Below, piece by piece: positions 27,814 to 62,428 of a stretch of DNA of 64,000 bases (its first letter is position 1; the number at the start of each line of letters is the position of its first letter). Below the pieces are notes generated by a model that had not been told where the DNA came from, made no database searches, and saw only the letters and a program-made list of their open reading frames with translations. Where the stretch lies: NCBI GenBank assembly GCA_965218885.1, contig OZ244713.1, positions 240,601 to 304,600 on the forward strand, written 5' to 3'. A program made the position numbers and the translations under genes. The stretch comes from a bacterium (GTDB taxonomy: Bacteria; UBA8248).

Positions 27814-30650
27814 CTATAACTCCATCCCTCGATCCGATCGGGTCTTCTCCATCACCGGCGACCGCCCCTCGCCCGGATGCAGCGCTTCCTTCGACCTCTC
27901 CGCCCCGATGCTCTCCGCCTTGCCCGCACCTATCGCCTCGAGCGCCGCGATGCGCTCCCCCGTCGCGGCTTCCAGCCGCTCGCACAGGGCCTTCGCGTCG
28001 TCCGTCACGAGTTCCGCCCGGTCCCGGGCGCGGCTGATCTCGACGTAGAGCGTCTTCTGGTTGGTGAGGTCGGGGTGGTTCGCCTCCATCGCCGCGATGA
28101 CGGTGTCGACCGTCCGGCCCTGGAAGGCGTGGACGGTCGAGGCCCATGCGCGGTCGACGTGGCGAAGCTGCGGGTCGCCGGCGGTCATGCCGAGCGTGCG
28201 CCCGTCCTCGATGCCGAAGGTGACGCGGCCGTTCATGACGCGCGTCACCTCGGCGGCCTGGCTGTTGACCAGACCGCGGTCCTTGTCGTTCCGGGTCCAG
28301 CGGACCTTGTCGCCTATGCGCAGTTCCATCCGCTCGACCTTGTATACCTCGACACCGCCGCTTCTCGCCGCGATTCGGCCCGGCTCCCAGCGGACTTCCC
28401 CTCCATGTCTGCCTTCGAGGATGACCGCGCCGCCCTTGTGATCGACGCCCGCCACGCGCAGCTCGTCCCCCTTCTCGACGCCCAGGCGCTTGTAGGGGCG
28501 GTGGAAGGCGACGACGTCGCCGGGTGAATAGTTCGCGGCGAGCGATTTCTCGGGATTCGTATAGCCGCGCGAGACGAGGCGCTGCGTGAGGAATGCCGGG
28601 CCGCAGACGACGCCCTCCCGGACCAGGCGCTCGCGGACGATGGCGTTGATCTTCTCGCGAATCTTATGGCTCGGCGCCATGAGCCCCGCCCGCTCGCGCG
28701 CCTCGGGCGGGAGCGCCAGCCAGCGCGCGGCGGCTGCGCCCGCGAGGTTGTCGGGCTTCACTTCGGCCACGTTCGAACCGAGCTTATCGAAGGCGCGCCT
28801 GACGTCGCCTGAGAGAGTGGCCTCGACGGCCGCTTTCAGGTCCGGGTCGCGCTGGCGCATGATCTCGTCCATGGTCGCCGTCTTCATGCCCGCGGCCTGA
28901 AGCTGCGCGAAGGGTTTGCCGGCGTCGACGGCGTCGAGTTGTTTCGCATCGCCGACGAGCACGACCCGGGGAAGGCGCAGGACCTCCGAGATACGGAGCA
29001 GTTCGCGCACCTCGCGCGTGGAACGAGGGAGCCCTCGTCCACGACGAGAGCGGTCTTCGCGTAGCCCGCGCGCAAGTGTTTTTGGGCTTTCCTCTTCAGG
29101 CGGCCATCGGCGACGTCCGCGTTTCGCGTGAGGAAGCGCTGGAGCGTCTCGCTCTCGATGCCGGCCTCGGCTTCGAGTGTCCGCGCGGCCGAGGCCGAGG
29201 GGGCCAGGCCCCGGACCTCGTAGCCGCGTTTTTCGAAGAGGGCGCGGGCGCGGCTGAGCATCCTGGTCTTCCCGGTCCCGGCGTAGCCCTGCACGCCCAC
29301 CACGCGGTCCTTTTCCGAGAGGATCAGCTTGACCGCGTCCCTTTGGCCCTGCGTCAGCGGTCCCTTGCGCAGATGCGCGCTCACCATCCAGCCCCGCATG
29401 GCGGGCGCGCCTCGCCCCCTGCCTGCCTCCACGAGGGCGATGGTCTCGCGCTCTGCCGCCGCCGCCTTCTCCGTCGTGAGCATGTCCTTCACTCCGGGCA
29501 GGTCCGCCGCGTGCAGGACGCCCGTTTTTTCGAGTCTCGCCACCTCGCGCACAGCATTCGCCATCGACACCGCGCCGGGCCGCCAGGCGAGCGCGCCCGC
29601 GAGCAGAGCGGCGCGGTCGAAGACGGCCTTGCGCTCCGCGAGATGCGCCACGGCCCATTCCACGGCTTCCCTCGCGGGTTCGACGTCCGCCGCGCTCCGG
29701 CCGGCGTCGCGGGATAGGGCGCTCCTCTCTATCGCCTGTGCCTTGAGGGTCCCGGCGTCGAAGCCCAACTCCTTCGCCTGCTTCTCCCAGGAGGCCATGA
29801 GCATCGCCTTGTCGGCCTCCCGCTTGCGATCCCTCGTCATAAGCGCGACCCGCTGGGCTGCGCGCTGGTTCTCCGCCGTCGCACCCAGACCCCGCTCGGC
29901 CATCGCGGCCTCGATCTCCGCCCGCCGGGTCGAGAACGCCTCGATCACTTCTCTGGGGACGCCCGCGACCTCGAAGCGCCCGTCCGCGTGGGTCTTCTCC
30001 ACCCGGTAGCCGAACCCTTCGAGGCCCCGGGCGAGTTCGGTCCGGTAGAGGGCGCCGATCAGCATCTTCTGGGCGTAGAGCTTCTCGTTGGACATCGTGC
30101 GCCACTTGCCGTCCGTCCCCCGGACCATGTTGGCGATAACCGCGTGCGTGTGGAGCAGGGGGTCGAGGTTGCGCGACGTATCGTGCCGGAAGGTCGCGAT
30201 GACGCTCTTCTGGTCTCCCGCCCGGACCATCCGTCCGGTCCCGGGCTCGCTCATCCTGGTCTCGGCGACGTTTCGCTCGACCCAGGCCAGGGTGCGCGCC
30301 ACGGCCACTTCGTGTGCCCAGATCGCGCGCCCGTCGCCACCGAGGTAGGCCAGCAGTGAGACGGACTTGGGCGCCGAGAGGGTGAGGTCTCGGCCGGGAC
30401 GGTGGTGGAACGACCCGTCCTTGCCCGGGCGCCCGAGCCTGCGCCCCGAACCGTCCGGCACTACGCCCTCTAGCACCGCGCGGAGGGTATCGGGGTCGAC
30501 CGGACCCGTGAGTCCCAGGTCCTCCGCGCCCCTGCCGCGCCAGGCGCTCGCATCCCGGTGGTTCGGGTCGTCCTTCGCGTAGTAGTCGTCGCGCTCGAAG
30601 TAGGAGACACACTGCGCCGGCGCGACGACGGCGCCGATGGATGCCACCAT
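27814..30650 (-). pseudogene. TrwC/TraI-type (MobF) conjugative relaxase-helicase, reading frame broken near 29025
   Basis: The N-terminus MVASIGAVVAPAQCVSYFERDDYYAKDD...HDTSRNLDPLLHTHAVIANM is the TrwC relaxase domain with its HxH motif, followed by a P-loop GYAGTGKT. The frame breaks after ALVVDEGSLV. The shifted frame then reads TREVRELLRISEVLRLPRVVLVGDAKQLDAVDAGKPF and continues to the helicase C-terminus. The break is at a short T/A run. ATG at 30650 is preceded by GAGGAG. Confidence 0.8.
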
Positions 30651-31100
30651 ATCAGTAGCTCCTCAGGCGGTTCCGATGCGACCGCCCTTGCGGACCCGCG
30701 CCTTCTCCCGCCTCGCCGCTCACGCGGCGGCGCTCCCGTGCGTCCGGATCGTTCCCGACTTTCCCGTTCATATGCGTCTCTCCTTCGCGTTCGAACCTCT
30801 CGCCCCGATCGATCCTCCGGCGTCATGCGGGCGGGGGCTCGCATCGCCCGCATTCAGGAGAAAAATAAGGCAAAAAAACCCGTTTGCAAGGATTTTCTAT
30901 ATCTAGTTTCCTACGCTTTCGCGTCATACGCGCCCTCGCATACGACCGGCTGCGCCGGGATATGATCTTTTTTTTTCGCAGCACGCCTCGCCCCGCGCCG
31001 GCGAGAGGCAGAGCCTGGCCGGGAGGGGGCGCGGGAGCCTGGCCGGAGAGGCCGGGCGGCGCCCGCATTCCCCTCACCCGCAACCCCGGAGGCGCGGCCC

Positions 31101-31444
31101 ATGAGTAACCAGAATCCATCCCGATACACCCGGGCCCTCGTTCTGGCGGGACCTGCTCTCGCACTTCTCGCCACAATCCTCTCTCTCGCGGCCGGGAGCG
31201 GTCTCCGCCTCCCCCTGTGGCCGTCTGGACCGGTTCGGCCCTCTGGTGCCTTCTCACGGCCCTCTCGTGCGTCCTGTGGCGGGGGTTCCGCCATGGGGAC
31301 TGGACGGCCTTCACCCGCTACCGACTCCCCGACGGGCGCGACGAGCGCTTCGACTGGTCGACCCGTACCGGCCGCTATGCCTGGCGCCGCGAGCTGGAGG
31401 AGCAGGAACTTCACGGCCACGACCCGGACGCACCCTTCCCGTAA
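31101..31444 (+). CDS. Hypothetical small protein, possibly frameshifted (two overlapping frames with TM-like segments)
   Basis: The ATG at 31101 has GGAGG 8 nt upstream. It encodes MSNQNPSRYTRALVLAGPALALLATILSLAAG and then drifts into low-complexity sequence. The frame of 31217..31444 gives a W-rich, plausible C-terminus. This is speculative. Confidence 0.25.
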
Positions 31445-31928
31445 AAGGCCTCCGGCGCGCTCCGCGCCGCAAAGAGGCCGAGCCGGGCCGGGAGGAGGCG
31501 CGGCCGGGCGGCCGGGAGAGGGCGTTTCCCCGCTACGCGCAAATCATCCAATTCAGGGAGACTCACGAGATGCGAAAACCGAAACCCGAAGCGAGCACCT
31601 TCCTCACTCACCTGTTTGGACGCGGCCTCGAGGATGAGCGCTACGCCGTCGAGAGGTTCCGCTCGGCGGATGACGGCGAGATCCGTCCCCTGCCCGCCGG
31701 GGGGCGCGGGACGAGACACGCGACCGCTTCCAGGAGAGCCGTCCGGAAGATGCGTCCCGCGCGCGATGAAATCATCGTCTGCACGGGGCTCAGGCTCAAA
31801 ACCTCGGGAATCCAGTATTGGGGCGGGCAGGCAACGGGACTTTTCGCCCAGGGCAGGCGGCGCTGAGGGGACGTCCCGCCGTCCGTCCCGCGCCTGTATT
31901 CCAGCCACTCGGGGGAGGAGACCGCACA

Positions 31929-32741
31929 ATGCCCCATAAAGACCCTGAAGAAGCCCGCGCGTATGAACGCGAGCGTTGCCGCAAGCGCACCGCCGACCGA
32001 CTCGCAAGGGGCCTTTGCCCCCGGTGCGGGAAACACCGGCCCGCACCCGGGCGCAGGGACTGTGAGCCCTGCGGCGAGAGGGCGCGCGATTCCGAACGCC
32101 TCCGCTACGCCAGAGCCAAGGCCGGGGGCGCGCACTACGGTGGACGCAATTCCGAGAGCCGCCGCAGAATGGCCAGGGAGAGGAGGAGGAAGCAAAGGAT
32201 CGAGCGCAAGGAAGCCGGGTTATGCGTCCGTTGCGGCGAGCTTGCTCCGGCGGAGGGCAGCGTCGTCTGCGAGACCTGCCGGGAGGCGAGGCGCGCTGAA
32301 GAGCGAAATCTCTACGCCGCCAGGAGAGCGAAAGGGCTTTGCGGCAGGTGCGGAGGACAGGTCTTCGCGGGAGCTTCCAGGTGCGGCCCGTGCGCCGCGC
32401 TCGAGAAGGCGCGCTCATCCGGAAAGAACGCCATCCGCAGGAAGCGCTATCACGACAGGCGCGCACGGGGGCTTTGCGTCGACTGCGGCGTCCATGCGGA
32501 CGCAGGGGTGAGATGCGCGAGCTGCGCGCGCCGATCGTATCACTCCTCGGGCGAGCACAGGGGAATGCCCGTCTATCCGCCCCGCTATACCGTGGTCGAA
32601 CTCGCCACGGGCGAGGAGCACGGACCCTGGGACTCCTGGGAAGAGGTCGCCATGTGCCTCGCCTTCGCGAAACTCTCGCGGGAGGAAGTGGAAGTCATCG
32701 AAGACGCTCCCGTGATGGCGAATCTCACATCTTGGGGGTGA
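31929..32741 (+). CDS. Novel protein with four tandem zinc-ribbon-like repeats (GLCxRCG...CxxC) plus a C-terminal acidic domain
   Basis: From the internal start MPHKDPEEARAYER, four repeats follow: RGLCPRCGKHRPAPGRRDCEPCGER, AGLCVRCGELAPAEGSVVCETCREA, KGLCGRCGGQVFAGASRCGPCAAL and RGLCVDCGVHADAGVRCASCARR. Each is followed by a basic R/K-rich linker. The C-terminal domain is YTVVELATGEEHGPWDSWEEV. I recognise no family. Confidence 0.55.
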   Translation: MPHKDPEEARAYERERCRKRTADRLARGLCPRCGKHRPAPGRRDCEPCGERARDSERLRYARAKAGGAHYGGRNSESRRRMARERRRKQRIERKEAGLCVRCGELAPAEGSVVCETCREARRAEERNLYAARRAKGLCGRCGGQVFAGASRCGPCAALEKARSSGKNAIRRKRYHDRRARGLCVDCGVHADAGVRCASCARRSYHSSGEHRGMPVYPPRYTVVELATGEEHGPWDSWEEVAMCLAFAKLSREEVEVIEDAPVMANLTSWG

Positions 32742-33314
32742 CGCGCCTGCACGTGCCGCCGGCCGTCGGGAGTACGTACTGCCGTCCTGCCGCCGGGGGG
32801 GGGCGACCGGGGGGAGGGTCTGACGACCGCCGCCCTGCTGCGCAGCCGTCCCGCCGCCGGGGGGGGTCGCTGGCCGGACTCGCCTCCCCAGCGTGAAGTA
32901 CCCGGGACTCCGGACCGGGGGGGCGCACGCCCGTGCAATCGGCTCGACGAGTTCGCCACCGGCGACGAAGACGCCGAGCGCAATCCCGGCCCGCCAGTCG
33001 GCACGGAGTCAACCCGGCATCCATCGTTTCCGGCATCCCAGCGCCGGCAGCGCCGACGACCAGCCTCACCGGCGGTGACAAGAACGTCGCCGCCCCGAAA
33101 TCCCACCGCTCGATTCGTCTCCGTTTCCACGTGCCCCATCCATCCGAATCCCGGACCTGACGCAAGACCGGCGCGGTATGCGGGCGGTCCTTATCGGCTG
33201 TGAACCTGCCCGGGAGAGGCAGAGAGAAGCAGGGGACCGGGCAAATGCCCGGTAGGGAGAGGGAGACCGTCTCCCTCCCGACGCCGGGCGCGACAACCCG
33301 AGAGGAGGCCTGGC

Positions 33315-33527: not shown

Positions 33528-33962
33528 ATGGCATTCGGACTCAACCGCGCGGAACTGATCGGGCGTCTCGGCGCCGACGTCACCATCAACCATCTCGCGA
33601 GCGGGGGACGCGTCGCTAACCTCTCCATCGCCACCGACGAGGGCTACGTCGATAAGCAGTCCGGCGATCGGGTGGAGAAGACCGAGTGGCACCGGGTCGT
33701 GACGTTCCAGCCCGGGCTGGTCGACATGTTCGAGAAGCACGCGAAGAAGGGCCGCCTGATCTACGTGGCGGGCAAGCTCCAGACCCGCCGCTGGAAGAAG
33801 GACGATGAGGACTCGGATCGGTTCTCGACCGAGATCCTCATCGCGCCGGGCGGACGCGTGCAGTTCCTCGACAAGGTGAACGGGAACGGCAACGGCGCGC
33901 ACCCAGAGACGGCCGATGTGGCGGCCACAGCGGGCGTAGTGGGCGAAGATATTCCATTCTGA
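33528..33962 (+). CDS. ssb: Single-stranded DNA-binding protein
   Basis: The OB-fold opening MAFGLNRAELIGRLGADVTINHLASGGRVANLSIATDE is present, followed by a Gly/Asn linker and the acidic tail ending DIPF, which is the canonical SSB C-terminus. Confidence 0.9.
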   Translation: MAFGLNRAELIGRLGADVTINHLASGGRVANLSIATDEGYVDKQSGDRVEKTEWHRVVTFQPGLVDMFEKHAKKGRLIYVAGKLQTRRWKKDDEDSDRFSTEILIAPGGRVQFLDKVNGNGNGAHPETADVAATAGVVGEDIPF

Positions 33963-35916: not shown

Positions 35917-36571
35917 CGTGAACGCTCAACGGGTCGCGTCGTCGCCGCCCGGCGGCGCGGCCCGTTGCGTCTCGTCGACCAACGCTCGCGCCACTTGCGC
36001 CGGCAACGATGAAGACTCCACTGGTCTTGCCGCAGGAACGACTCTCCGCATTGCTCCTCCCGCTCAATCGCCGCGGCGGCTCCCGCTCGCCTCGTTCACC
36101 GGCAAAAATTCCCCCGACTCGCGTTCCCTAAAATCCCTGCGCTAGCCGCCCTTCGGCGTTTCGTTCAGTACACCCCACGCAGCTACTCTGCGGGTGTTGC
36201 GGTGATATGACTGCGCGCGATGAGCCGTGATAATTCGCACCCCCGTGTGTTCCAGTCGCGCCGGAAAAAGTAATACCATTCTGGTAGCTCGCGAACCCGG
36301 CGCTCAAGCCTGCGCCTTGCCTGCCTCTCATACGAGCAAAACAGCAGGTGAACGGCATTTGCGAATCTCCTCTCTCCTACGGGATACCAAATTGGTAGTA
36401 AACAGACATGCGCTGCTCTATGATGGCTACCAATTTTGTATCTCATGAAGCGGAGTTATTCGGAGGCCTTCTGAGTTTGTAAGAAGTGCATTCGTTATAA
36501 AAAGCAGGCTGTTTGCGGTCGTTTCGGGATCAAAATTGTCTCGAATCTTTACGAAAGGATCGGCAAAACGA

Positions 36572-36697
36572 ATGGTGCAGACGACACAAAAGAACATTCG
36601 CTTCACGCCGGAACAGTGGTAATGCGTCGAAAAAGAGGCGCTCGAGCGTAGGATAAGCCCGAATCGACTGGTGGTCAAGCTAGTGATGGAGACTTAA
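36572..36697 (+). pseudogene. CopG/RHH (ribbon-helix-helix)-like small ORF interrupted by an in-frame TAA
   Basis: It reads MVQTTQKNIRFTPEQW-(TAA at 36620-36622)-CVEKEALERRISPNRLVVKLVMET. The pattern of a beta-strand (IRFTPEQ) followed by two helices is RHH-like. AAAGGA lies upstream. Confidence 0.3.
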
Positions 36698-37392
36698 AGC
36701 GCCGGGAATAGCTGCTACCGGATGCACGGGAGAATCTCGCCTGGTGCGCTGGCTGGTCAGATTGCGTCATTCCTGATATGTGGTCATCCTTGGAGGGCCC
36801 CAAGTTCAGGCCAAGGCAATTCGTTGTAACCTTGACCACCTCCTGAAAGTCACAGTTTCTGATTCTACGCCATCACAAAATCCAAGAATATTTGAAATCC
36901 ACGGAGCAAAAATCCAAGAGTTTGATCTTTCCTTACAAGGATGATCACGTAAAGTTGGCAATCTTCCTCGTTCCATACTCCGAAGTCGACTGAAAAGTTG
37001 CTCAACATGTGAGGATTTGGATTGAAAATTCAAATTGCATTTGCTCCGAATGGTCACTCCGTTGTTGAAAAAACGAAAGGCGAGCGGAAAAGAGGTTCGT
37101 CAATTGTACATAAATGGATGAGACAACTTTTTGTGAATATTTCTCATGATTCCAAAATGAAGAATGTTTAGACACAGACAACTGCAGGCATAAGGAAGAA
37201 TCGAGCTACCTCTGAAACTGTAAAAAAGGAACTATCAGCTTTCTTCATTTCCACACTGTACCTTTGCTTCGTATTGACGTTCGTCGCCGGTTTCTCAACC
37301 AACCCACGCGCAGGGGTTTCAAAACAAAGCTTCAGCCAGCACATCCTTGACGAAGTGCGGCGTATCGCCAGCAAGAGGAGGGGACAGAGTAC

Positions 37393-37420
37393 TTGACAGT
37401 AGCCACATTTATACTACTAT
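37393..37420 (+). promoter_or_regulatory. Sigma70-like promoter candidate for the cargo module
   Basis: TTGACA (37393-37398), a 16-nt spacer and TACTAT (37415-37420) sit about 45 nt upstream of the ATG at 37467, in an AT-rich region. Confidence 0.4.
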
Positions 37421-37466
37421 AAATATAGAAATGCGACACATGGGACTCTTCCACGAGGTGCTCTGA

Positions 37467-39398: not shown

Positions 39399-39462
39399 AA
39401 GAATCAGGGCCGAACTTAATCGGGAGAGCACGGCAATCGGGGAAAAGCTAAGGAGTTTAATC

Positions 39463-40836: not shown

Positions 40837-40943
40837 GTGAACACCCGGCGTACGAGTGAAGTTGGAAATGGACGAACTGGTTCCATGGAAATTGTTCGGA
40901 GGGCGATATCTTTCCACTCAAATCAGGATGGAGGAAAAGGACA

Positions 40944-41576
40944 ATGAAGATCACATCACGTTTCAGTTCCATTGGGGCCGTTGTCGTGGCCATCGTGGCT
41001 GTCGTAGCGCTCCAGGCTGCGGGGGTGGGCTCATACGATGCGTCGGCGGAGTCTTATATGAAGGATCTCGACATCCGTCAGATACCTATGGCGAAAATCC
41101 AGCCGGCAAAGCCGAGCGGAGCGAGCGCCGCTGCGGGTCTGGCCGTCAACGCCAGCGTAAACCGGGCAAACCGTAAGTATAAACATGGCGAGAACGTCGT
41201 GCTGACTGTCAAGGCCACGGAAGACGCCTATATCTGGGTGTTTGACACGGGAACCAGCGGCAAGGTGCATCAGATATTCCCCAACCGTTACGAGAAGAAT
41301 AATTTCGTGAAAGCCAAAGCGGCGCTTCGTATTCCCGGAAAGGGATCTAAGTATATGCTTACGGCTTCCCGTCCCAAGGGCGCGGAGTTGATCACGGTCA
41401 TCGCGTCGAAAACAAATGCCCCTTTGACCCCGACGATGATCGCCAAAGGTAACGGAAGCAGTCCGTTCCTGGCATTGAACGGTACGGCGCAATCGGTGGC
41501 GAAGGATTTGTCGATCACCTTGCGCAAAAAGCATCGTGTCTGGGCCAGGGCTCAGCAGGTTATTCTTATCGACTAG
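40944..41576 (+). CDS. Secreted DUF4384-domain protein
   Basis: The N-terminal signal/TM segment is FSSIGAVVVAIVAVVALQAAG. The DUF4384-type core is DAYIWVFDTGTSGKVHQIFPNRY. Confidence 0.6.
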   Translation: MKITSRFSSIGAVVVAIVAVVALQAAGVGSYDASAESYMKDLDIRQIPMAKIQPAKPSGASAAAGLAVNASVNRANRKYKHGENVVLTVKATEDAYIWVFDTGTSGKVHQIFPNRYEKNNFVKAKAALRIPGKGSKYMLTASRPKGAELITVIASKTNAPLTPTMIAKGNGSSPFLALNGTAQSVAKDLSITLRKKHRVWARAQQVILID

Positions 41577-41606
41577 ACATCGAATCGGTACCTGGAGGGA
41601 CGCATC

Positions 41607-46396: not shown

Positions 46397-46404
46397 ATCA
46401 AGAG

Positions 46405-49213: not shown

Positions 49214-49230
49214 CGTTTTGATTACATATT
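49214..49230. repeat. 17-bp direct repeat, right copy (candidate attR)
   Basis: cgttttgattacatatt is identical to 24809-24825. It lies in an AT-rich non-coding stretch just before the MMPL gene. Confidence 0.45.
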
Positions 49231-49346
49231 GAAGAAAGTGGATTTGGAACAAGATTTCGAATCATGCCTGTATCCCAATGATATCAACAGGATAGAAGGA
49301 TTTCAGGGCTGATGGAAATACCCTAACGCCTCTAAGCGGGCGTATA

Positions 49347-54105: not shown

Positions 54106-54949
54106 GCCGACAGGAATACCACATGTCGAATCGCGTTACCAGCCCCCGATGAAAATCTCTTCAGATGTCAATGATGAAAAGGACGAACCCCATCACCCCG
54201 TGACTGAACGGTAACTCCTGTCGATCGTCGATGGGGTGGACGCGCCCGCCCGGCGACTTCACATCCGGGCGAGGCGACGTCGTTTACGTCGTCGGCGCAT
54301 GGTCCGGAATCCGGCTCCCCGGCAACGCGCTTGCGATTGCGCTCCCTCCTCTTCCGCCCCCGGTTCCCCCCCCTTTTTTCCGTAGCGCTTCGCTCCTCTC
54401 CCTGGCGCGTTCGGCCTTCGCGGGGGAAACCCCGTGTTTTTCCTGCCGCATCGCAGCGCGAAGCACGCAGGTTCCATGCGAATGCGGGTTTTGCGCCATC
54501 GAGCATGATTGAACGGGCGCCCACTCTTTCCTTTACAGGCAACCCGGCGGTTGACCGATCCTGTCAGTAGTGATAAGTATATTTGATAGAAATGACCAAG
54601 GATAATCGGGGGTAAACGACGTGGATGTTTCCTTCTCCAAGCGTGGCTTATCCCGCCGGCACCGTCATCTTCCGCGCCGCCTGGGCGAGGCCACCCCGTT
54701 GGCGGGCCGTTCGCGTCCTGATAGACTGGGGCTGGGCCCACAGACCCACAGAATTAGATAGCTCAGGTCTCGCTGAGGGCCGGGACGTGCGCCGGCCCTC
54801 ACGGACCCGTTCGGGTTTCGCTTCCCGCACGTACGGGCGCGATGGTTTTGTAGCCCCTCCTCGGGATTGTCCTGCCCTCCGTGGTTGTCCTTCGTCAGGA
54901 CAGGCTGGAGGCCTGTCCCTGCGCGAGACGAGACGCTTCCGCAGGGGCG

Positions 54950-55890
54950 TCAGTAGATCGGGGTGAGAACGTCGGCGAAATCCGGGTCCTTGCCGCGGGT
55001 GGCGCGGAAGAACGCTTCCTGAAGCTCCCGGGTGAGAGGGCCGGGCTTCCCATCGCCGACCGGGATCCGGTCCACCGAGACGACGGGCGTCACTTCCTTC
55101 GCCGAGCCGCAGATCAGGATCTCGTCCGCGAGATAGAGCTCGGTGCGGTCCACCTCCCGCTCCACCGCCGGGCGGTTTCGGACCTTCGCGAAGAGCCCCA
55201 TCAAGGTGGCGCGGGTGATCCCTTCCAGAATTCCCGCCGTCACGGAAGGCGTGATCAACTGCCCGTCGCGTACCAGCATCACGTTCGCGCCCGACGCCTC
55301 GGCGAGCTTGCCGTCCCGGTTGAGGATGAGGGCGTCGTCGTAGCCGTTGACGCGCGCCTCCACCCCGGCGAGGCGGCTGTTCTGGTAGTTGGACCCGACC
55401 TTCACCCGGGCCGGAATCGAATCGTCGTGGATGCGCCGCCAACTGCTGACGCAGACGTGAATGCCGTGCCGGAGGGCGTCGTCGTGGGGGCGGCCCCCCC
55501 CGCCACCCACGCACCGATCTCGATCTCCTCCGGCCGGTACTTCTTGACGTCCCCGGCACCGCCGAATCCGAAGTACGTCACCAGACGCATGTGGACGTCC
55601 TCCCGGAACCGTTTCGCGCGCGCCCAGTCGAGGACCGCCTGCCGGTACTCGTCGAAACCGTAGGGGGACGTCATCCGCATGATCTTCATGTTGACTAACA
55701 GGCGCTCGAGGTGCTGATCCAGCTTCCAGACGAAGAGGTTGTCCCGCACCTCGTCCCAATAGGCCCGCAAACCCTCGTAGACGTTCGCTCCGCGCATGGC
55801 GGTGGCGGTGAGGACGCTCACCTTGGCGTCCTCGGGCGCGACCATGCCGCCGTCGAGCCAGACCTGGAATCGCTCCGAATCCTTGCTCAT
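54950..55890 (-). pseudogene. Class-IV (branched-chain / D-amino-acid) aminotransferase, frameshifted at a C8 run (55493-55500)
   Basis: The N-terminal frame reads MSKDSERFQVWLDGGMVAPEDAKVSVL...EIEIGAWVAGG. It continues in another frame as ...RHGIHVCVSSWRR...RVKVGSNYQNSRLAGVEA...GYDDALILNRDGKLAEASGANVMLVRDGQLITP...ILEGITR, which carries the class-IV family blocks. Its start overlaps the hyuA stop. Confidence 0.7.
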
Positions 55891-58019
55891 GCTCCCTCCG
55901 TCTCTCTCGGCCCTGTCATGCGAGCCCCCCCGCTACCGCCGCTCCCTGTGTCGTGCGGGGCCGACACGACCGTGAGGTTCAGGTTGCCCTGCTCGTCGCT
56001 GCGGGCGACCTGTCCGGGCAGCACGACGGTCGTCGAGTCCATCTGCTCGAGGATCGCGGGGCCTTCGAGATCGGCGCCCCGGGGGAGGCCCTCCCGGGCG
56101 TAGATCGGACAATCGACGAATCCGCCGAGCTCTGCAAAATGCACCCGGCGCCTCCCTCGCTCCGCCGCGCGCAGGTCGCCGCCCGTCCCGGCGGCGCCCG
56201 CGACCGGGGGCGCCGTCACCCGGGCGAGGGCGGTGACGCGAAAGGTGACCAGTTGAACCGGCGCGTCCGGCGCGTAGCCGTACACTCTTTCGTGCTCGCG
56301 CCGGAAAGCGTCGACCAGCGCCGAGAGGTCGTGGTCGGCGAATTCCCGCTCCTGAACCGCCACCGTGATCTCGTGGCTCTGTCCGACGTAGCGCATGTCG
56401 ATGGCACGTTGCACCGTGCGCTCGCCGGGCTCCACCCCCTCCCGGTCGAACCATTCGAGCGCTCGCTGTCTGACCTCCGTGAAGGTGACGTTGATGCCGG
56501 CGGCGCCGGTTCCCTCGAGATCGGCGATCCGCGTCAGGCTGAAATCCGAGCGCACGTCGGCGACGAGGAGCCCGAGCGCGCACAGGAGACCCGGTCCGGG
56601 CGGCACCATGACCCGGGTCATGCCCAGCTCGCGGGCGAGCGCGGAGGCGAGGAGAGGCCCCGCCCCCCCGAACGCCACCAGGGTGAAGTGCCGCGGATCG
56701 AAACCCTTCTCCACCGAGATCACGCGTATCGCCTGAACCAGGTTCTCGTTGAGGATGGTGAGCACCGCTTCGGCCGCCTCCTCGACCCCGAGCCCCATCG
56801 GGGCCGCCACCTTGTCGGCGATTGCGCGGTGCGCGAGGTCGGGACGGAGGCTCATGCGGCCGCCCAGCAGGGATTCGCCGGAAAGGCGGCCGAGCACGAC
56901 GTTGGCGTCGGTCACGGTGGGCTCGGTTCCCCCGAGGCCGTAGCAGGCGGGGCCGGGCGCGGCGCCGGCGCTCCGGGGGCCCACGTGCACGAAGCCGCCC
57001 GTGTCCACGCGCGCGATGCTACCCCCTCCGGCTCCCACCGAATGCACGTCGACCATCGGAAAGCGGATGGGATGCCCCCGCACCTCCCGCTCCTTTGCGA
57101 CGAGCGGCCGGTTGCCTTCGATGAGGCAGACGTCGGTGCTCGTTCCCCCGACGTCGAAGGTGATGACGTCCGGACACTCGGCTCTTCCGGCGAGAAAGCC
57201 CGCGCCGGTGACTCCCGCCGCCGGCCCCGACATGAGGCAGCGGCCCGCCATCGCACCCGCATCCCGAAGCGAGGCGACGCCGCCGTGGGACTGGAGGATC
57301 TTCGGGCCCACGATGCCCAGGGCGCGGGACCGTTCCCCGAGGCGCTCGAGATAGCGGCTCACGACCGGGCCCAGCGATGCGTTCAGCACGGTGGTCGTGG
57401 TCCTCTCGTACTCGCGGAACTCGGCCACGACTTCGTGGGATGCGCAGGTGAACGCACCGGGAAGGTGCTCGCGCACCGCGGCCGCGACGGCGGCCTCGTG
57501 GGCCGGATTGTGGTAGCTGTGCAGGAAGCAGACGGCCACCGCCTCCACGCCTTCGCGGCGGAAGTCGTCGAGGATTCCATCGAGCGCTTCGAGGTCCGGC
57601 GGCACGTCGGAAGGCCCGAGGAGATAGGTGCGCTCCTCGATCTCGCGCCGGAGGTGGCGCGCGACGAGGGGCGGGGGCTTCGGCATCCGAATGTCGTAGT
57701 TGTGGGGTTGGCGCTGGCGGCGGATCTCCAGGATGTCGCGAAACCCTTCAGTGGTGATGAGGCCCGTGACCGCCGTGTCCCCCGTGATGAGCGCGTTGGT
57801 GGCGACCGTCGTTCCGTGGCCGAAGTAGCGGACGTTCCCGGCACCGGCGGCTGCACAGTCCAATAGCTCCGGAATGCCGGCCGCAATCGCCCGGGACGGG
57901 TCGTCCGGTGTCGAGGGTGTCTTCAGAAACCACGTCTTGCCGTCCGAGAGGCGGACGAGTGCGAAGTCGGTGAACGTCCCGCCGACGTCGACGCCGAGGA
58001 CGTAACGCTCAGGCGCCAC
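55887..58019 (-). CDS. hyuA: Hydantoinase/oxoprolinase family, A (beta) subunit
   Basis: The N-terminus MAPERYVLGVDVGGTFTDFAL is the ASKHA-fold opening of HyuA-type proteins. The protein is 710 aa. Confidence 0.8.
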   Translation of the reverse strand: MAPERYVLGVDVGGTFTDFALVRLSDGKTWFLKTPSTPDDPSRAIAAGIPELLDCAAAGAGNVRYFGHGTTVATNALITGDTAVTGLITTEGFRDILEIRRQRQPHNYDIRMPKPPPLVARHLRREIEERTYLLGPSDVPPDLEALDGILDDFRREGVEAVAVCFLHSYHNPAHEAAVAAAVREHLPGAFTCASHEVVAEFREYERTTTTVLNASLGPVVSRYLERLGERSRALGIVGPKILQSHGGVASLRDAGAMAGRCLMSGPAAGVTGAGFLAGRAECPDVITFDVGGTSTDVCLIEGNRPLVAKEREVRGHPIRFPMVDVHSVGAGGGSIARVDTGGFVHVGPRSAGAAPGPACYGLGGTEPTVTDANVVLGRLSGESLLGGRMSLRPDLAHRAIADKVAAPMGLGVEEAAEAVLTILNENLVQAIRVISVEKGFDPRHFTLVAFGGAGPLLASALARELGMTRVMVPPGPGLLCALGLLVADVRSDFSLTRIADLEGTGAAGINVTFTEVRQRALEWFDREGVEPGERTVQRAIDMRYVGQSHEITVAVQEREFADHDLSALVDAFRREHERVYGYAPDAPVQLVTFRVTALARVTAPPVAGAAGTGGDLRAAERGRRRVHFAELGGFVDCPIYAREGLPRGADLEGPAILEQMDSTTVVLPGQVARSDEQGNLNLTVVSAPHDTGSGGSGGARMTGPRETEGA

Positions 58020-59754
58020 GGTTCGAATCTTGGCGGGCCTCCCGCAAGGCCGCGGTCCGGGAGGCGTCGACGCTTCCGCGGACGAGCGCGACGCCGTAGC
58101 TCTGCTCCGCCGCGGGTGCGGTCACCTTGCCGGCGGCCACGTCGTCGCGCACCCTCTCCGGATCGCGTTCCCACGGGTCGCCGAAGCCGGCACCGGACGG
58201 GGTGTCGACCCGAACCGTCGTTCCCGCGTCCACCTTGAGCTCCGAGAACGAGCCAGGAAGCTTCGTCTCGCGGTTTCCGCCCGGGTCCAGAACGAAGACG
58301 CCGGGACACCCCGAACTTCCGCCAAACAGCCCGGACGCGCCTCGGGATTGGCGCAGTCCGCGGCCTGCGAGCCTCGCCCGCTCCGCCCAGATGGTGATGT
58401 CGCGGCGCGTCGCGAGGCCGCCGCGATGTCGTCCGGGGCCTCCCGAGTCGGCGATCAGCTCGTAGCGGCCGACGGTCAGCGGGAACTCCTGCTCCACGGA
58501 TTCGATGGGCAGGTTGGCCGCGCCCGAAACGTGGACCCGGACCGCGTCTTTTCCGTCGAGCGCGGAAAGCGCGCCGGACGCTCCCGCGTAGGTCTCGTAG
58601 TCGACGAAGTACTCGTTCCGGCGCGGGTCGACGCCGCTGAAGATAAGCCCGTGGAGCGGACCGCAGCCGGCCATCACCCGGTCCGGCGCCGCGTCGGCGA
58701 GCGCGCCCAGCAGCAGGTCGCCGAGCACGTTGCCGGTCGCGCCCCGATCCCCGACGGCGGCGGGGGGGCGGCAGTTGACGACCGTGCCTTCCGGCGCGGT
58801 GACGCCGATGGCGCGGAAGTACCCGGAGTTGGGCGGCAGCGCCGGGTCCGTCACCGCCTTGACCGCGTAGTAGACGCCGGACAGGGTGGCCGCGAGCGGC
58901 ATGTTCCGGGCCCCTGCGATCTGCCCGTCGGTGCCCGTGAAGTCGAAGTGAATGCGATCGACGCGAATGGTGATCTTGACGCGGAGGCGAACGATGCCGT
59001 CGGCCACGCCGTCGTTGTCGACCACTTCTTCGTTCTCGTAGGTTCCGTCCGGCAGCCTCGCGATCTCGGCGCGCGTGCGCGACTCGGCGTAGTCGAGGAG
59101 CGCTCTCGCGCCCCGGTGCACGCTATCGGCTCCGAAGCGAGCAAAGCACTCCTGCACCCGGCGGACCCCGATGGCGTTGGTCGCGATCTGGGCCCGCAGA
59201 TCGCCCTCGCGCTCGCGCGGGGTGCGCGAGTTGAGGAGCACGAACGCGAGCATGTCGGTGCACAGCTCCCCCTCGTCCAGCAGCTTGACGGGAGGGATTC
59301 GCAGCCCTTCCTGGAAGATGCTCGTGCAGTCGGCGCTCTCGCTCCCCGCCACCTTGCCGCCGATGTCGGAGTGGTGGGCGATGTTGGCGACGAACGCGAC
59401 CGGCCGGCCATCGAAGAAGACGGGGCTTGCGAGCGTCAGGTCCGGCAGGTGCGAGCCGCCTCCCACGTACGGATCGTTCGTGAGGAAGCCGTCGCCGGGG
59501 CGAAAGCGGTCGAGGGGGTAACGCCGGGTGATGTTCTCCACGAGGCCGAGGAGCGAGCTCAGGTGAAGGGGGGCGATGGCGGTCAGGGCGAGGAGGTTGC
59601 CCGCAGTGTCGAAGATCGCGACCGAGCAGTCACGCCGCTCCTTGATGTTCGGGGAATACGCGGTCTTGACGAGGGTGGCCATCATCTCGTCGGCCGCGGC
59701 GGCGAAGCGGTGCGCGATGACCTCGGTGGTGATTCGGTCGCAGTCTGGATCCAT
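58009..59754 (-). CDS. hyuB: Hydantoinase B/oxoprolinase family, B (alpha) subunit
   Basis: The internal start MDPDCDRITTEVIAHRFAAAADEMMATLVKTAYSPNIKERRDCSVAIFD is the HyuB opening. GGGGAG lies 7 nt upstream. Its stop overlaps the hyuA start. Confidence 0.8.
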   Translation of the reverse strand: MDPDCDRITTEVIAHRFAAAADEMMATLVKTAYSPNIKERRDCSVAIFDTAGNLLALTAIAPLHLSSLLGLVENITRRYPLDRFRPGDGFLTNDPYVGGGSHLPDLTLASPVFFDGRPVAFVANIAHHSDIGGKVAGSESADCTSIFQEGLRIPPVKLLDEGELCTDMLAFVLLNSRTPREREGDLRAQIATNAIGVRRVQECFARFGADSVHRGARALLDYAESRTRAEIARLPDGTYENEEVVDNDGVADGIVRLRVKITIRVDRIHFDFTGTDGQIAGARNMPLAATLSGVYYAVKAVTDPALPPNSGYFRAIGVTAPEGTVVNCRPPAAVGDRGATGNVLGDLLLGALADAAPDRVMAGCGPLHGLIFSGVDPRRNEYFVDYETYAGASGALSALDGKDAVRVHVSGAANLPIESVEQEFPLTVGRYELIADSGGPGRHRGGLATRRDITIWAERARLAGRGLRQSRGASGLFGGSSGCPGVFVLDPGGNRETKLPGSFSELKVDAGTTVRVDTPSGAGFGDPWERDPERVRDDVAAGKVTAPAAEQSYGVALVRGSVDASRTAALREARQDSNRGA

Positions 59755-59876
59755 GGGCACTCCCCGACGAGTTACCGTCAGAAGTTGTGTATGAACTGAA
59801 TTGAAGAAGGCGGCGCATCCTGCTGAAATAGGGTTGTCCAAAGCCCGGTCATTCAGCACACAGGAGATGCTCCACC

Positions 59877-61010
59877 ATGAGAGAAGATACGACGATTTCT
59901 TTCCGGAATCCAGCCCTACGGGACAAGTTGAGCGAACTGGTGCGCGAGGGCGCGCAACGAATCATCCGCCAAGCGGTGGAAGCGGAGTTGGAGGCCTTTC
60001 TGGAAGGGTATGCGGCCGACCGTGACGCGCAAGGTCGACGCGCGGTGGTTCGCAACGGCTACCTGCCGTCGCGGGAGGTGTTGACGGGTGTGGGTCCGGT
60101 GCGTGTCCGGGTTCCGCGGACGCGGGACAGGTCGGGCGCGGGCCGGTGCTTCCGCTCGGAGTTGCTGCCGCCGTATTTGAAGAAGACGAGGCGTATGGAG
60201 GCGGTGATTCCGTGGCTGTACCTGAAGGGGGTATCGACGAACGACTTCGGTGAAGCGCTCACGGCGCTGTTCGGTGAGTCGGTGAAGGGATTGTCCCCGG
60301 CGAGCGTCGCGCGGCTCAAGGACGGCTGGGAGCGTGAGTACGCGCAGTGGCGCGAGCGCGACTGGGCAGAGGAGGAGTTCGTGTATCTGTGGGCGGACGG
60401 GATCTACGTGAACGTGCGCGGCGAGGAGCGGCGTTGTCTGCTAGTGGTTGTGGGTTGCGACGCGCGTGGCCGCAAGCGCTTCCTGGCCCTGGAATCCGGG
60501 TTCAGGGAGTCGAAGGAGAGCTGGAGGCGGTGCTGTTGAGCCTGCGGGACCGGGGCGTGAGGGCGGCGAAGCTGGCGGTGGGCGACGGTGGGCTGGGGTT
60601 GTGGTCGGCCCTGGCCGAGGTATATCCCGAAACCCGTGCGCAGCGCTGCTGGATGCACAAGACGGCGAACGTGCTCGACAGGCTACCCAAACGGGTTCAG
60701 GGCGAAGCGAAGTCGATGCTGCACGAGATATGGGGGTCGGACACCCGTGCGCATGCGAAGGAGGCTTTTGAGCGCTTCTGTGCCACCTGGGAGGCGAAGT
60801 ACCCGAAAGCCGCCGATTGCCTGGCGGGGGGACCGCGAGGAGTTGCTCGCCTTCTACGACTTCCCGGCGGCGCACTGGCAGAGTCTGCGGACGACGAACC
60901 CCATCGAATCGACCTTCGCCACCATCCGCCTACGGACGGCGAATACCAGGAACTGCCTGAGCGAGAAGACGACGCTAAGCCTTGTGCATCAACTCACCAA
61001 TAGGGCATAG
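59877..61010 (+). pseudogene. IS256-family (Mutator-type) transposase with two frameshifts, at G-runs near 60521-60527 and 60826-60831
   Basis: The three frames read in turn ...ALESGFRESKESW, then LEAVLLSLRDRGV...QRCWMHKTANVLDRLPK...KYPKAADCLA, then DREELLAFYDFPAAHWQSLRTTNPIESTFATIRLRT. Together these carry the canonical IS256 motifs. Confidence 0.8.
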
Positions 61011-61403
61011 AAGCGATAACGCAGTTTACGCGGCTTCCGAAAACTGGCCGACGTGAGGTTCATCGACGGAGTGGACGAAAGAGGTATGGGCAGGAGGGCT
61101 GCTGGATTCGAGACGGCCATACAACAGATTTGTGTATGGACGCGCCCAAGAATGCAAGCGTTGGCCCGGAGGTTTTGGTGCGTTATGGTCAGACTCATTC
61201 GTGTATACGGCCTCTCAATTGCGGCGTTTCACTATTACCGCGGGCCCGTATGGAAATGCGAGGATCGGGTCCGAATCGACCGTGCGAGCTTGAAAAACTC
61301 CAAAATCTGGTCCTGGTTTTCCCGACCCCGTCTCAATGACCGTTCGCCCCTACCTCCTCATTCGGCCTGCTCACATTCCCGCCGTGCTCCGCTCGCCTGC
61401 CGC

Positions 61404-62428
61404 TCAGGCGGCCGGCGCCGGCTCCCGGTAGAATTCTCTGTTCGTAATCAGCGCCCAGGCGATGCGCGCCATCCTGTTGGCCAGCGCCACCGCAACCAGC
61501 ATCTTGGGCTTACGCGCCAGCATCCGGGCCAGCCACGATCCGGGAGGCGCGCCTCGCCGGACCGCCCAGCGCACCACGCTCATCGCGCCCGTGATCAACA
61601 ACCGCCTCACGTCGCGCTGGCCCATCTTCGATATCCTGCCCAGTCGCGGCTTGCCTCCGGTCGAGTGCTGTCGCGGCACGAGACCGAGCCAGGCGGAGAA
61701 GTCCCGCCCCCGGCGGAAGCTCTCCATCGGCGGGGCGAAGGCCTGGATCGCCGACGCGCAGACCGGACCGACCCCCGGAATGCTCATCAGTCGTCTCGCT
61801 TCCTCATCCTCGTACGCGCTCGTGCGGAGTCGCCTCTCCAACTCCTGTATCTTCTCCTTCAGGCCGGCTATATGCGCGAGCAGAACCACGCCCAGTTCGC
61901 GGACCGCTTCGGGCAGCCCCGAATCCGAACCCCGAACCGCCGACGCCAATCGCGTGAGGTGCGCCGGCCCTTGCGGCGCGACGACCCCGAACTCCGCCAG
62001 ATGACCCCGCAGCGCGTTAATCGTCTGGGTACGCCGGCTTTCCAGCAAATCGCACGTGCGGTACAGCATCCCCCGGGCCTGCTGCGCTTCGCTCTTCACC
62101 GCCACGAACCTCATGCTTGGGCGGGAGGCCGCCTCGCAGATCGCCTCCGCATCCGCCGCGTCGTTCTTGTGGCGCTTGACAAAAGGCTTCACGTAGACCG
62201 GAGGGATGATCTTCACCTCGTGACCGAGTTCACCGATCTCGCGGCTCCAGTAGTGCGCGCTCGCGCATGCTTCCATCGCCACCAGACAACGCGACTGCGA
62301 GGCCAAAAATCCAGCACCTTTGTCCTGGTCAACTTCTTGCGGAACGCGACCGACCCGTCCGCACGAGCTCCGTGGAGTTGAAAACCCTGTTTCGCCAAGT
62401 CGATGCCGATAATGTGGACCTGTTCCAT
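61404..62428 (-). pseudogene. IS110-family transposase, frameshifted at an A5/T5 run (62305-62309)
   Basis: The N-terminal frame reads MEQVHIIGIDLAKQGFQLHGARADGSVAFRKKLTRTKVLDF. The shifted frame continues LASQSRCLVAMEACASAHYWSREIGELGHEVKIIPPVYVKPFVKRHKNDAADAEAI...INALRGHLAEFG, which carries the IS110 motifs. Confidence 0.8.

What the first reader, a model, noticed from the sequence alone, without database searches (positions are those of the whole stretch)
29020..62312. All traced frameshifts sit in short homopolymer runs
The breaks are:
- the relaxase, at a TT/AA run near 29025
- the class-IV aminotransferase, at a C8 run (55493-55500)
- IS256, at GG near 60525 and at G6 (60826-60831)
- IS110, at A5 (62305-62309)

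Each is repaired by a 1-nt change in a homopolymer. The cause may be sequencing or assembly error, slippage-prone sites, or genuine decay. These genes should not be called dead without read-level evidence.
Basis: seen in the sequence. Interest (0 to 1): 0.5.

Follow-up and report, generated by a model that had tools for sequence, protein, structure and literature searches.

The report
Six frameshifts, mostly genuine mutations
The broken genes here are truly broken, and about twenty related assemblies suggest most breaks are ordinary mutations in mobile or dispensable DNA rather than an assembly-wide sequencing fault, so this is a routine quality-control note.

Summary
All five reported frameshifts exist. 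I found a sixth, at the 3' end of hydA (C7, 55925-55931).

The claim that all sit in homopolymers holds for three of the five.
- The aminotransferase C8 is C9 in intact relatives.
- The IS256 G6 is G5 in relatives.
- The IS110 A5 is A6 in relatives.

The other two do not fit.
- The relaxase most likely lost the lone C of an invariant Ala codon.
- IS256 site 1 lost an A of a Lys codon, not a G of GG.

Comparison with about 20 related contigs sorts the sites.
- IS256 site 1 is identical in 16 of 16 relatives, so it is inherited. That copy also carries two nonsense codons and a 12-nt deletion, so it is dead regardless.
- The aminotransferase tract varies in length (C8, C9, C11, C12) among near-identical haplotypes. 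C8 and C9 both occur in contigs labelled about 30x.
- G6 and C7 are unique to the window. A5 recurs in one relative.

None of 148 runs of 5 nt or more inside intact genes is broken, against 3 of 19 in unconstrained DNA (p = 0.0013). This favours real, selection-filtered slippage mutations over blind error. Reads are still needed for the private sites. The finding is ordinary.

The parts
27814..30650 (-). TrwC-type conjugative relaxase/helicase gene split into two frames. It is 945 aa once one base is restored.
   Evidence: Pfam TrwC plus AAA_30 continuing across frames. tblastn against the intact L007 relaxase switches frame between window 29025 and 29022. The best homologues are 945 aa.
29023..29024 (-). 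Two orphan bases (GT on the coding strand) where homologues have an Ala codon. This is a 1-nt deletion, most simply of the C of GCT, so not a homopolymer event.
   Evidence: Ala in 67 of 67 homologues. L015 reads CTG GCT TCC, L007 GCC TCC, window CTC G-T TCC.
54950..55890 (-). Class IV (branched-chain type) aminotransferase gene, split into a 162-aa piece and a 151-aa piece.
   Evidence: Pfam Aminotran_4 in two frames. With C9 it gives a 313-aa protein, the same length as intact homologues at 92%, 91% and 85% identity.
55494..55501 (-). C8 tract (G8 on the coding strand). It is a length-variable mononucleotide run; C8 is out of frame and C9 is in frame.
   Evidence: C8 in L001-L010. C9 in L020-L023. 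C12 in L011 and a further variant in L012. G11 in P0154. G9 in JGI/GenBank contigs L017-L019. An intact, more distant orthologue (L013) has G5-A-C4 there.
55887..58019 (-). Hydantoinase/oxoprolinase A-subunit gene. It is intact except for its last codons.
   Evidence: Pfam. The C-terminus is ...SGGSGGLA* in relatives and ...SGGSGGARMTGPRETEGA* in the window.
55925..55931 (-). C7 run.
   Evidence: C6 in 20 of 20 relatives.
59877..61100 (+). IS256-family transposase pseudogene.
   Evidence: Pfam Transposase_mut spread over three frames. Intact homologues are 413-422 aa.
60525..60525 (+). IS256 break 1: a single A left from a Lys codon (AAG or AAA). This 1-nt deletion is shared by every relative.
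   Evidence: Identical sequence in 16 of 16 relatives. K at this position in 105 of 116 intact homologues, and L024 DNA reads TGG AAA GCG.
60826..60831 (+). IS256 break 2: G6, a 1-nt insertion seen only in the window.
   Evidence: G5 in 14 close relatives. L016 reads GCAAAGGAC and L024 reads GCGAGGGAC, both in frame.
61008..61019 (+). Two window-private nonsense codons in IS256 (TAG 61008-61010, TAA 61017-61019). Relatives read AEKRWRRL here. A private 12-nt deletion follows at 61046/61047.
61404..62429 (-). IS110-family transposase gene (ATG at 62427-62429). It is 341 aa, 96% identical to intact relatives, once one A is restored.
   Evidence: Pfam DEDD_Tnp_IS110 plus Transposase_20. Repaired translation against L002, L004, L005 and L008.
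62305..62309 (-). A5 run (T5 on the coding strand), a 1-nt deletion and the only lesion in IS110.
   Evidence: A6 in L002, L004, L005, L006, L008, L016 and L021. A5 also in L003, where the IS110 is already split by an inserted recombinase gene.

Best explanation
The six breaks are mostly genuine small indel mutations, of different ages, in DNA the cell can afford to lose.

Proposed mechanism:
1. Strand slippage during replication changes the length of mononucleotide runs. This accounts for G9 to G8 in the aminotransferase, G5 to G6 in IS256, T6 to T5 in IS110 and G6 to G7 at the hydA stop, all given on the coding strand.
2. Ordinary 1-nt deletions occur elsewhere. These are the C of an Ala codon in the relaxase and an A of a Lys codon in IS256.
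3. Purifying selection removes such changes from needed genes.
4. They persist in insertion-sequence copies, in the relaxase of a multi-copy integrative element, and in an accessory hydantoinase-aminotransferase module flanked by insertion sequences.

Shown here:
- The IS256 deletion at 60525 is inherited and the IS256 copy is dead.
- The aminotransferase tract varies in length among near-identical genomes.
- G6 and C7 are found only in the window; A5 recurs in one relative (L003).
- No run inside an intact gene of the window is broken.

Inferred:
- The private changes (G6, A5, C7 and the relaxase deletion) are mutations rather than consensus errors.
- Slippage is the process that made them.
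For: Inherited lesion:
- IS256 site 1 is base-for-base identical in 16 contigs from different assemblies and flanks.

IS256 decay unrelated to homopolymers:
- Two nonsense codons, a 12-nt deletion between GCCGA repeats, and about 32 private substitutions in 220 nt.

Aminotransferase tract:
- The exact frameshifted 162-aa product is on 25 contigs, and variants carrying the same tract bring this to about 34.
- The intact C9 product is on 4 contigs.
- C8 occurs in contigs labelled 28.64x, 21x and 14x, and C9 in one labelled 33.68x.
- The two states are interspersed on haplotypes that differ by 2 to 5 substitutions in 5.4 kb.

Selection signature in the window:
- 0 of 148 runs of 5 nt or more inside intact genes are broken, against 3 of 19 in the unconstrained part of the module (Fisher p = 0.0013).
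- A uniform error rate compatible with 0 of 148 gives P = 0.006 for 3 of 19.

Control in the relatives:
- 15 runs in hydA and hydB across 17 contigs, including ones labelled 2x to 5x, show no length variant.
- Pooled, this is 0 of 270 against 5 of 200 (p = 0.014).

Branch length and direction:
- The window sits on a long branch, with 54 private substitutions against 0 to 18 in the others. Its 3 private 1-nt indels give a ratio similar to the relatives (3 for 45).
- Directions are mixed, two insertions and four deletions, with no single bias.

The rest of the window:
- All other genes checked give full-length Pfam matches, including proteins of 1184, 848, 710, 701 and 678 aa.
Against: - No reads are available, and the window's own assembly and its technology are unknown. 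Its private products are not on record.
- G6 and C7 are unique among 14 to 20 relatives, and A5 is seen only in L003. A consensus error would look the same.
- All three lie in or next to repeated elements, where polishing with mis-assigned reads is most likely to fail.
- Three of the four C9 contigs are labelled only 2x to 4x.
- The intergenic C8 at 54366-54373 reads C10 in L021 and L023, which are otherwise distant. Part of the length variation at runs of 8 or more could therefore be technical.
- L003 has A5 while its near-identical relatives L006 and L021 have A6. This could be a recurrent error rather than recurrent slippage.
- The relatives appear to share one sequencing technology. This is inferred from contig names only.
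Confidence: 0.65

Rival explanations
1. The window-private breaks are consensus errors of the window's assembly. These are G6, A5, C7, perhaps the relaxase deletion and perhaps the C8 state. Homopolymer lengths would have been miscalled or mis-polished in repeated, strain-variable DNA, and the genes would be intact in the organism.
For: - G6 and C7 are absent from every relative examined and A5 from all but L003, and all three are changes to runs of 5 to 6 nt.
- Restoring one base gives full-length IS110 (341 aa), relaxase (945 aa) and aminotransferase (313 aa) with no other lesion.
- The metaMDBG paper states that residual contig errors are mostly homopolymers (PMC11392814).
- Length differences at long C runs do not follow haplotype relationships.
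Against: - 0 of 148 runs of 5 nt or more in intact genes of the same window are affected.
- 0 of 255 observations in the relatives' hydA and hydB are affected, even at 2x to 5x.
- The relaxase and IS256 site 1 deletions are not homopolymer events.
- IS256 is dead regardless.
- C8 is the majority state in independent assemblies, including contigs labelled 14x to 28.64x.
- Insertions and deletions both occur.
Confidence: 0.27
2. The poly-G tract in the aminotransferase is a functional switch or recoding site. It would be either a contingency (phase-variation) locus toggling the enzyme on (G9) and off (G8), or it would be read through by transcriptional or ribosomal -1 slippage, so the gene would still be expressed in the window.
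For: - The tract was built from G5 to G9 by four substitutions, two of them synonymous, relative to the intact orthologue L013.
- On and off lengths coexist on near-identical haplotypes.
- The gene has no other lesion in the window.
- It is the only run of 8 nt or more inside a recognised coding sequence in the window.
Against: - Off outnumbers on by about 34 contigs to 5.
- Several relatives carry further lesions in the same gene. These are a 19-nt deletion, a 5-nt insertion, a +T, truncation at window 55141 in L004, L008 and L010, and a second compensating frameshift in P0028.
- Variable sites within the clade are not concentrated at third codon positions in this gene or in hydA and hydB. 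This points to relaxed constraint.
- G-runs of 8 are not known efficient slippery sites (my knowledge).
- No expression data exist.
Confidence: 0.06

Closest known systems
Pseudogenes made by replication slippage at mononucleotide runs in bacterial accessory and mobile DNA
   Same: - One-base length changes at runs of 5 to 9 nt.
- Confined to dispensable genes.
- Absent from constrained genes.
- Mixed insertions and deletions.
   Different: Two of the six breaks are not at runs of 5 nt or more. For the private sites the mutational origin is inferred, not shown.
Homopolymer indel artefacts of long-read assemblies that fragment genes (for example as treated in PMC12007338; metaMDBG polishing, PMC11392814)
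   Same: One-base homopolymer length differences that split otherwise intact genes and are unique to one assembly.
   Different: - Only 3 or 4 such sites in 64 kb.
- None among 148 runs in intact genes.
- Two breaks recur across independent assemblies.
Simple-sequence contingency loci (poly-G or poly-C phase variation, as in Neisseria, Haemophilus and Campylobacter; from my knowledge)
   Same: A poly-G tract inside a coding sequence, with in-frame and out-of-frame lengths both found among near-identical genomes.
   Different: - The gene is a metabolic aminotransferase in a decaying module, not a surface or restriction-modification gene.
- The off state dominates.
- Other lesions accumulate.
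- No within-population data exist.
Programmed -1 frameshifting in IS3 and IS1 family transposases (from my knowledge)
   Same: A transposase read in two frames that needs a -1 shift.
   Different: - IS256 and IS110 transposases are single-frame proteins in all intact homologues here (413-422 aa and 341 aa).
- There is no X XXY YYZ heptamer at 60520-60530.
- The IS256 copy also carries stop codons.

Membership tests
Sequencing or assembly homopolymer artefact | The break lies in a mononucleotide run long enough to be miscalled (5 nt or more). | tested here: inconclusive
   True for C8, G6, A5 and C7. False for the relaxase (a lone C) and for IS256 site 1 (an A of AAG/AAA).
Sequencing or assembly homopolymer artefact | The length is not reproduced in independent assemblies of close relatives. 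| tested here: inconclusive
   - Met for G6 (0 of 14) and C7 (0 of 20), and largely for A5 (1 of 7, L003).
- Not met for C8 (about 34 contigs) or IS256 site 1 (16 of 16).
- No relative closer than 88% nt exists for the relaxase.

Sequencing or assembly homopolymer artefact | Errors fall regardless of functional constraint. | tested here: not met
   0 of 148 runs in intact genes against 3 of 19 in unconstrained module DNA, p = 0.0013. In the relatives, 0 of 255 in hydA and hydB.
Sequencing or assembly homopolymer artefact | Reads disagree with the consensus at the site. | not testable with these tools
   No reads are available, and the window's source assembly is not in the searchable collections.
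Simple-sequence contingency locus (phase variation) | The mononucleotide tract lies inside the reading frame. | tested here: met
   G8 lies within codons for A-G-G-G of the motif GAWVAGG(G/P)RPH.
Simple-sequence contingency locus (phase variation) | Tract length differs among otherwise near-identical genomes, giving on and off states. | tested here: met
   C8, C9, C11 and C12. L020 (C9) is 2 substitutions from L003 and L006 (C8). L022 (C9) is 2 substitutions from L002 (C8).
Simple-sequence contingency locus (phase variation) | The gene is otherwise maintained by selection. | tested here: inconclusive
   It is intact apart from the tract in the window and in L020-L023. Extra lesions occur in L004, L008, L010, L011, L012 and P0028, and the codon-position pattern is flat with low counts.
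Simple-sequence contingency locus (phase variation) | Length is mixed within one population, and switching is reversible. | not testable with these tools
   This needs read-level data.
IS256 family insertion sequence | A Transposase_mut (PF00872) domain protein of about 400 aa in one frame. | tested here: not met
   The domain is present. It is spread over three frames with two stop codons and a 12-nt deletion, so this is a degraded member. Intact homologues are 413-422 aa. Terminal inverted repeats were not examined.
IS110 family insertion sequence | DEDD_Tnp_IS110 (PF01548) plus Transposase_20 (PF02371) in one protein of about 340 aa. | tested here: inconclusive
   Both domains are present. 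One frame is obtained only after restoring one A, giving 341 aa at 96% identity to intact relatives.
TrwC-type (MOBF) conjugative relaxase | An N-terminal TrwC relaxase domain plus a C-terminal helicase with AAA_30 and UvrD_C_2. | tested here: met
   All domains are present in order. The reading frame is interrupted at the DEGSL-A-ST motif. I take this to be the helicase's Walker B region (my reading, not tested).
Programmed -1 ribosomal frameshift | A slippery heptamer X XXY YYZ at the shift site. | tested here: not met
   - IS256 site 1 reads GAG AGC TGG AGG CGG, with no heptamer.
- The relaxase reads TCC CTC GTT CCA, with none.
- The aminotransferase G GGG GGG fits the letter pattern only; no downstream structure was tested.

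The most novel reading that the evidence does not exclude
The G8/G9 tract in the aminotransferase could be an evolved on/off switch. It would be a contingency locus in a metabolic hydantoinase-aminotransferase module carried by insertion sequences in an uncultured lineage, whose homologues are labelled as Nitrospinae/Nitrospinota genomes from metagenomes. Strains would toggle the enzyme by slippage.
Probability: 0.07. Interest if true: 0.45.

Novelty: already known. Interest (0 to 1): 0.2.

Why it matters
The value is practical.
- **Frameshifts in one window can differ in age and cause.** Neither blanket correction of homopolymers nor blanket pseudogene calls would be right here.
- **IS256 can be annotated as a pseudogene now.**
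- **The aminotransferase should be flagged as variable at a poly-C tract,** because intact alleles exist in the nearest relatives.
- **IS110, the relaxase and the hydA tail need reads.**
- **A reusable test without reads.** Compare the breakage of homopolymers in constrained DNA with that in unconstrained DNA, and check the same runs in related assemblies.

Tried and rejected
- **Plasmid searches.** Megablast of the IS region and the relaxase region against plasmids gave only weak matches or none.
- **Exact look-ups of window-specific products.** The relaxase N-piece, a YAcAr protein and the extended hydA are not on record. The source assembly and its technology could not be identified.
- **JGI scan for the IS256 G-run.** It found nothing.
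- **First repair of the aminotransferase.** Deleting a C gave the wrong frame. Adding a C is correct.
- **Provisional 'ancient fixed pseudogene' reading of the aminotransferase.** I held this. I dropped it when the exact C9 product turned up on four contigs, including the window's nearest relative.
- **Parsimony reading from L013.** It suggested the deletion was in the CC beside the tract. JGI/GenBank contigs with G9-CTG-C5 showed the ancestor was G9.
- **Possible frameshifted gene at the G9, G8 and G7 runs (32795-32923).** Neither the six-frame translation nor the GC3 profile showed a coding signal there. It is a 25-nt direct repeat.
- **Further frameshifts elsewhere.** Overlapping same-strand ORF pairs at 1.9-3.8 kb, 15.8-16.8 kb and 24.8-27.2 kb are separate complete genes by Pfam.
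- **IS256 fragment flanking the module on the other side.** None is present in the window.


Full report
**1. What is there**

The window has 60-70% G+C over most of its length. Pfam scans of the ORF pieces confirm four interrupted genes. At each break the profile runs on from one frame into the next.
- A TrwC relaxase/helicase (minus strand, 27814-30650).
- A class IV aminotransferase (minus strand, 54950-55890).
- An IS256-family transposase (plus strand, 59877 to about 61100), broken twice.
- An IS110-family transposase (minus strand, 61404-62429).

- G6 is at 60826-60831 and A5 at 62305-62309, both exact.
- The 'TT/AA' and 'GG' items are only dinucleotides.

**2. Is the rest of the window clean?**

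I checked about 35 further ORFs with Pfam. All gave full-length matches. They include pyruvate carboxylase (1184 aa), an MMPL transporter, caspase/WD40 proteins of 678 and 848 aa, hydantoinase A and B, Opp transporter genes and two tandem integrases. Overlapping same-strand ORF pairs that looked suspicious are separate complete genes. The frameshifts are therefore few. All lie beyond the two integrases at 24829-27190, in island or mobile DNA.

**3. Related sequences**

An exact look-up of the frameshifted 162-aa aminotransferase piece found it on 21 or more contigs from at least 8 ENA metagenome assemblies. None of these is the window itself. They are 97.5-99.4% identical over window 54216-62770. 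This stretch is a module of aminotransferase, hydA, hydB, IS256 and IS110 that sits in different left flanks.

Further loci came from several routes.
- Homologue searches.
- Exact cluster look-ups.
- DNA pattern scans of GTDB genomes and JGI metagenomes.

Source labels on close homologues read 'Nitrospinae/Nitrospinota bacterium' MAGs. Contig names of the form ctgN_28.64x_c look like metaMDBG HiFi output with a coverage value. That is my reading of the names, not a tested fact. The metaMDBG paper says residual contig errors are mostly homopolymers (PMC11392814).

**4. Site by site**

*Relaxase.*
- tblastn with the intact L007 relaxase stops at ...VVDEGSL (window 29025) and resumes at STREV... 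(29022). Two orphan bases are left.
- Every homologue in which my pattern found the motif (67 of 67) has Ala there.
- L015 reads CTG GCT TCC, L007 reads GCC TCC, and the window reads CTC G-T TCC.
- The simplest history is loss of the lone C of GCT.
- The nearest DNA relative is only 88% identical. Whether the lesion is shared cannot be tested.

*Aminotransferase.*
- Adding one C (C9) gives a 313-aa protein. This is the length of intact homologues at 92%, 91% and 85% identity.
- On the coding strand the intact orthologue L013 reads GCC GGG GGA CCC CGC. The window reads GCG GGG GGG GCC GCC....
- JGI/GenBank contigs L017-L019 (97.5% identical) read G9-CTG-C5, in frame. The clade's ancestor therefore had G9 and the window state is G9 to G8.
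- The tract is variable:

| Tract state | Where seen |
|---|---|
| C8 | About 34 contigs: P0145 on 25; P0147, P0148, P0149, P0153 and P0028 on 9 more |
| C9, exact intact product P0275 | 4 contigs, L020-L023 |
| C12 | L011 |
| G9 directly followed by C5 (the CC is missing) | L012 |
| G11 | P0154 |

- Both main states occur in well-covered contigs. C8 is in contigs labelled 28.64x, 21x and 14x. C9 is in one labelled 33.68x.
- The states are interspersed on haplotypes. L020 (C9) differs from L003 and L006 (C8) by 2 substitutions in 5.4 kb. L022 (C9) differs from L002 (C8) by 2. L023 (C9) is the window's nearest relative.
- Several relatives carry further lesions in this gene: a 19-nt deletion, a 5-nt insertion, a +T, truncation at window 55141, and a second frameshift in P0028.

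*hydA 3' end (new).*
- The window has C7 at 55925-55931, against C6 in 20 of 20 relatives.
- This replaces the final ...GGLA* with ...GGARMTGPRETEGA*.

*IS256 break 1.*
- The sequence is identical in 16 of 16 relatives.
- Intact homologues read ESKESW-K-AVLL, with K in 105 of 116. L024 DNA reads TGG AAA GCG.
- The window reads TGG A-G GCG. An A of the Lys codon was lost at 60525, not a G.

*IS256 break 2.*
- The window has G6, against G5 in 14 close relatives. L016 and L024 have other in-frame codons there.

*Other IS256 lesions (window only).*
- TAG at 61008-61010 and TAA at 61017-61019, where relatives read AEKRWRRL.
- A 12-nt deletion between GCCGA repeats.
- About 32 private substitutions in 220 nt.
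- Relatives have their own TAG where the window keeps TGG.
- This copy is dead whatever the run lengths are.

*IS110.*
- The window has A5, against A6 in L002, L004, L005, L006, L008, L016 and L021.
- A5 also occurs in L003, whose IS110 is already split by an inserted recombinase gene.
- With A6 the window protein is 341 aa and 96% identical to intact relatives. There is no other lesion.

**5. More than chance?**

- 46.5% of bases lie in runs of 2 or more, so the dinucleotide claims carry no weight.
- 2.1% of bases lie in runs of 5 or more.
With the hydA site it is four of six (p = 3e-6).
- The association with real homopolymers is genuine but not universal.

**6. Error or mutation?**

Sequencing error is blind to function, while mutation filtered by selection is not.
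- In the window, 0 of 148 runs of 5 nt or more inside intact genes are broken. In the unconstrained part of the module 3 of 19 are (Fisher p = 0.0013).
- An error rate compatible with 0 of 148 gives P = 0.006 for 3 of 19.
- In the relatives, the 15 runs inside hydA and hydB show no length variant in 17 contigs. This includes contigs labelled 2x to 5x.
- The window is a long branch, with 54 private substitutions against 0 to 18. Three private 1-nt indels are in proportion to what the relatives show (3 for 45).
- Directions are mixed, four deletions and two insertions.

These points favour real mutations. Several points pull the other way.
- G6 and C7 are unique to the window, and A5 recurs only in L003.
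- The private sites lie in or beside repeated DNA.
- Three of the four C9 contigs are thinly covered.
- The intergenic C8 at 54366-54373 reads C10 in two unrelated contigs.
- The L003 A5 could be a recurrent error.
- There is no constrained control for runs of 8 nt or more. The aminotransferase tract is the only run of 8 nt or more inside a recognised coding sequence in the window.

**7. Mechanism and rivals**

- **Best reading (0.65): replication slippage plus ordinary small deletions.** These changes are retained only where selection is weak. The lesions differ in age: one is inherited (IS256 site 1), one sits at a labile tract (aminotransferase), and four are recent or private.
- **Rival (about 0.27): consensus errors at the private sites.**
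- **Rival (about 0.06): the aminotransferase tract is a functional switch or is read through.** Variable sites within the clade in hydA, hydB and the aminotransferase are not concentrated at third codon positions. Divergence from the distant orthologue L013 is. This suggests the whole module is drifting and argues against a maintained switch, but the counts are small.

**8. Comparison with known things, and verdict**

Homopolymer slippage pseudogenes, long-read homopolymer artefacts and poly-G contingency loci are all well known. Nothing here falls outside them. The IS256 and IS110 transposases are single-frame proteins in all intact homologues, and no slippery heptamer is present at the non-homopolymer breaks. 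Programmed frameshifting is therefore not supported.

- **Observation:** partly confirmed.
partly supported. The caution is right for three genes and wrong for IS256.
- **Overall:** the finding is an ordinary annotation and quality-control matter.

Noticed in passing
C7 stands against C6 in 20 of 20 relatives, which swaps the last 2 residues of hydantoinase A for a 12-residue tail that overlaps the aminotransferase start.
   Followed up: yes
window 54216-62770 and 63066-64000; loci L001-L012, L016, L020-L023: The aminotransferase-hydA-hydB-IS256-IS110 module recurs at 98-99.5% identity in about 20 contigs, with different DNA beyond the IS110 end. The Dak2/DegV gene lies on the opposite side of the module in the window compared with the relatives, so the region has been rearranged.
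   Followed up: partly
window 24544-32741; L014, L015: Two tandem tyrosine integrases, a TrwC relaxase and small ORFs form an element that is 81-88% identical to loci elsewhere. One 4.39-Mb genome holds at least four relaxase paralogues (P0156-P0158, P0251). This is a multi-copy integrative, mobilisable element family.
   Followed up: partly
window 32781-32923: A 25-nt direct repeat, GCCGTCC(T/C)GCCGCC followed by G9 or G8, occurs twice 64 nt apart, and a third run (G7) lies 58 nt further on. The stretch has no coding signal and lies between a Cys-rich ORF (31818-32741) and the SSB gene (33528-33962). Its function is unknown.
   Followed up: partly
L003, L006, L021 (window equivalent about 62173-62186): A serine recombinase gene is inserted inside the IS110 copy in these relatives. 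L003 has A5 at the same run as the window, while L006 and L021 have A6.
   Followed up: partly
window 54366-54373: This intergenic C8 run reads C10 in L021 and L023, which are otherwise among the most distant haplotypes. The difference is either recurrent slippage or a technical effect at long C runs.
   Followed up: no
window 60877-60879 versus relatives: L002, L004, L005 and L011 carry a TAG stop in IS256 (AAH*RSL) where the window and L001 keep TGG. Different copies of the dead element have acquired different lesions.
   Followed up: partly
window 55935-59859 (hydA, hydB): Variable sites within the clade are spread evenly over codon positions (15, 8 and 14). Divergence from the distant orthologue L013 is mostly at third positions. 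This hints that the whole captured operon is under relaxed selection.
   Followed up: partly
window about 36000-50000: A lower-GC block (52-58%) encodes proteins with caspase (Peptidase_C14), DUF4384, OmpA and WD40 domains. It looks like a separately acquired insert within the island.
   Followed up: no
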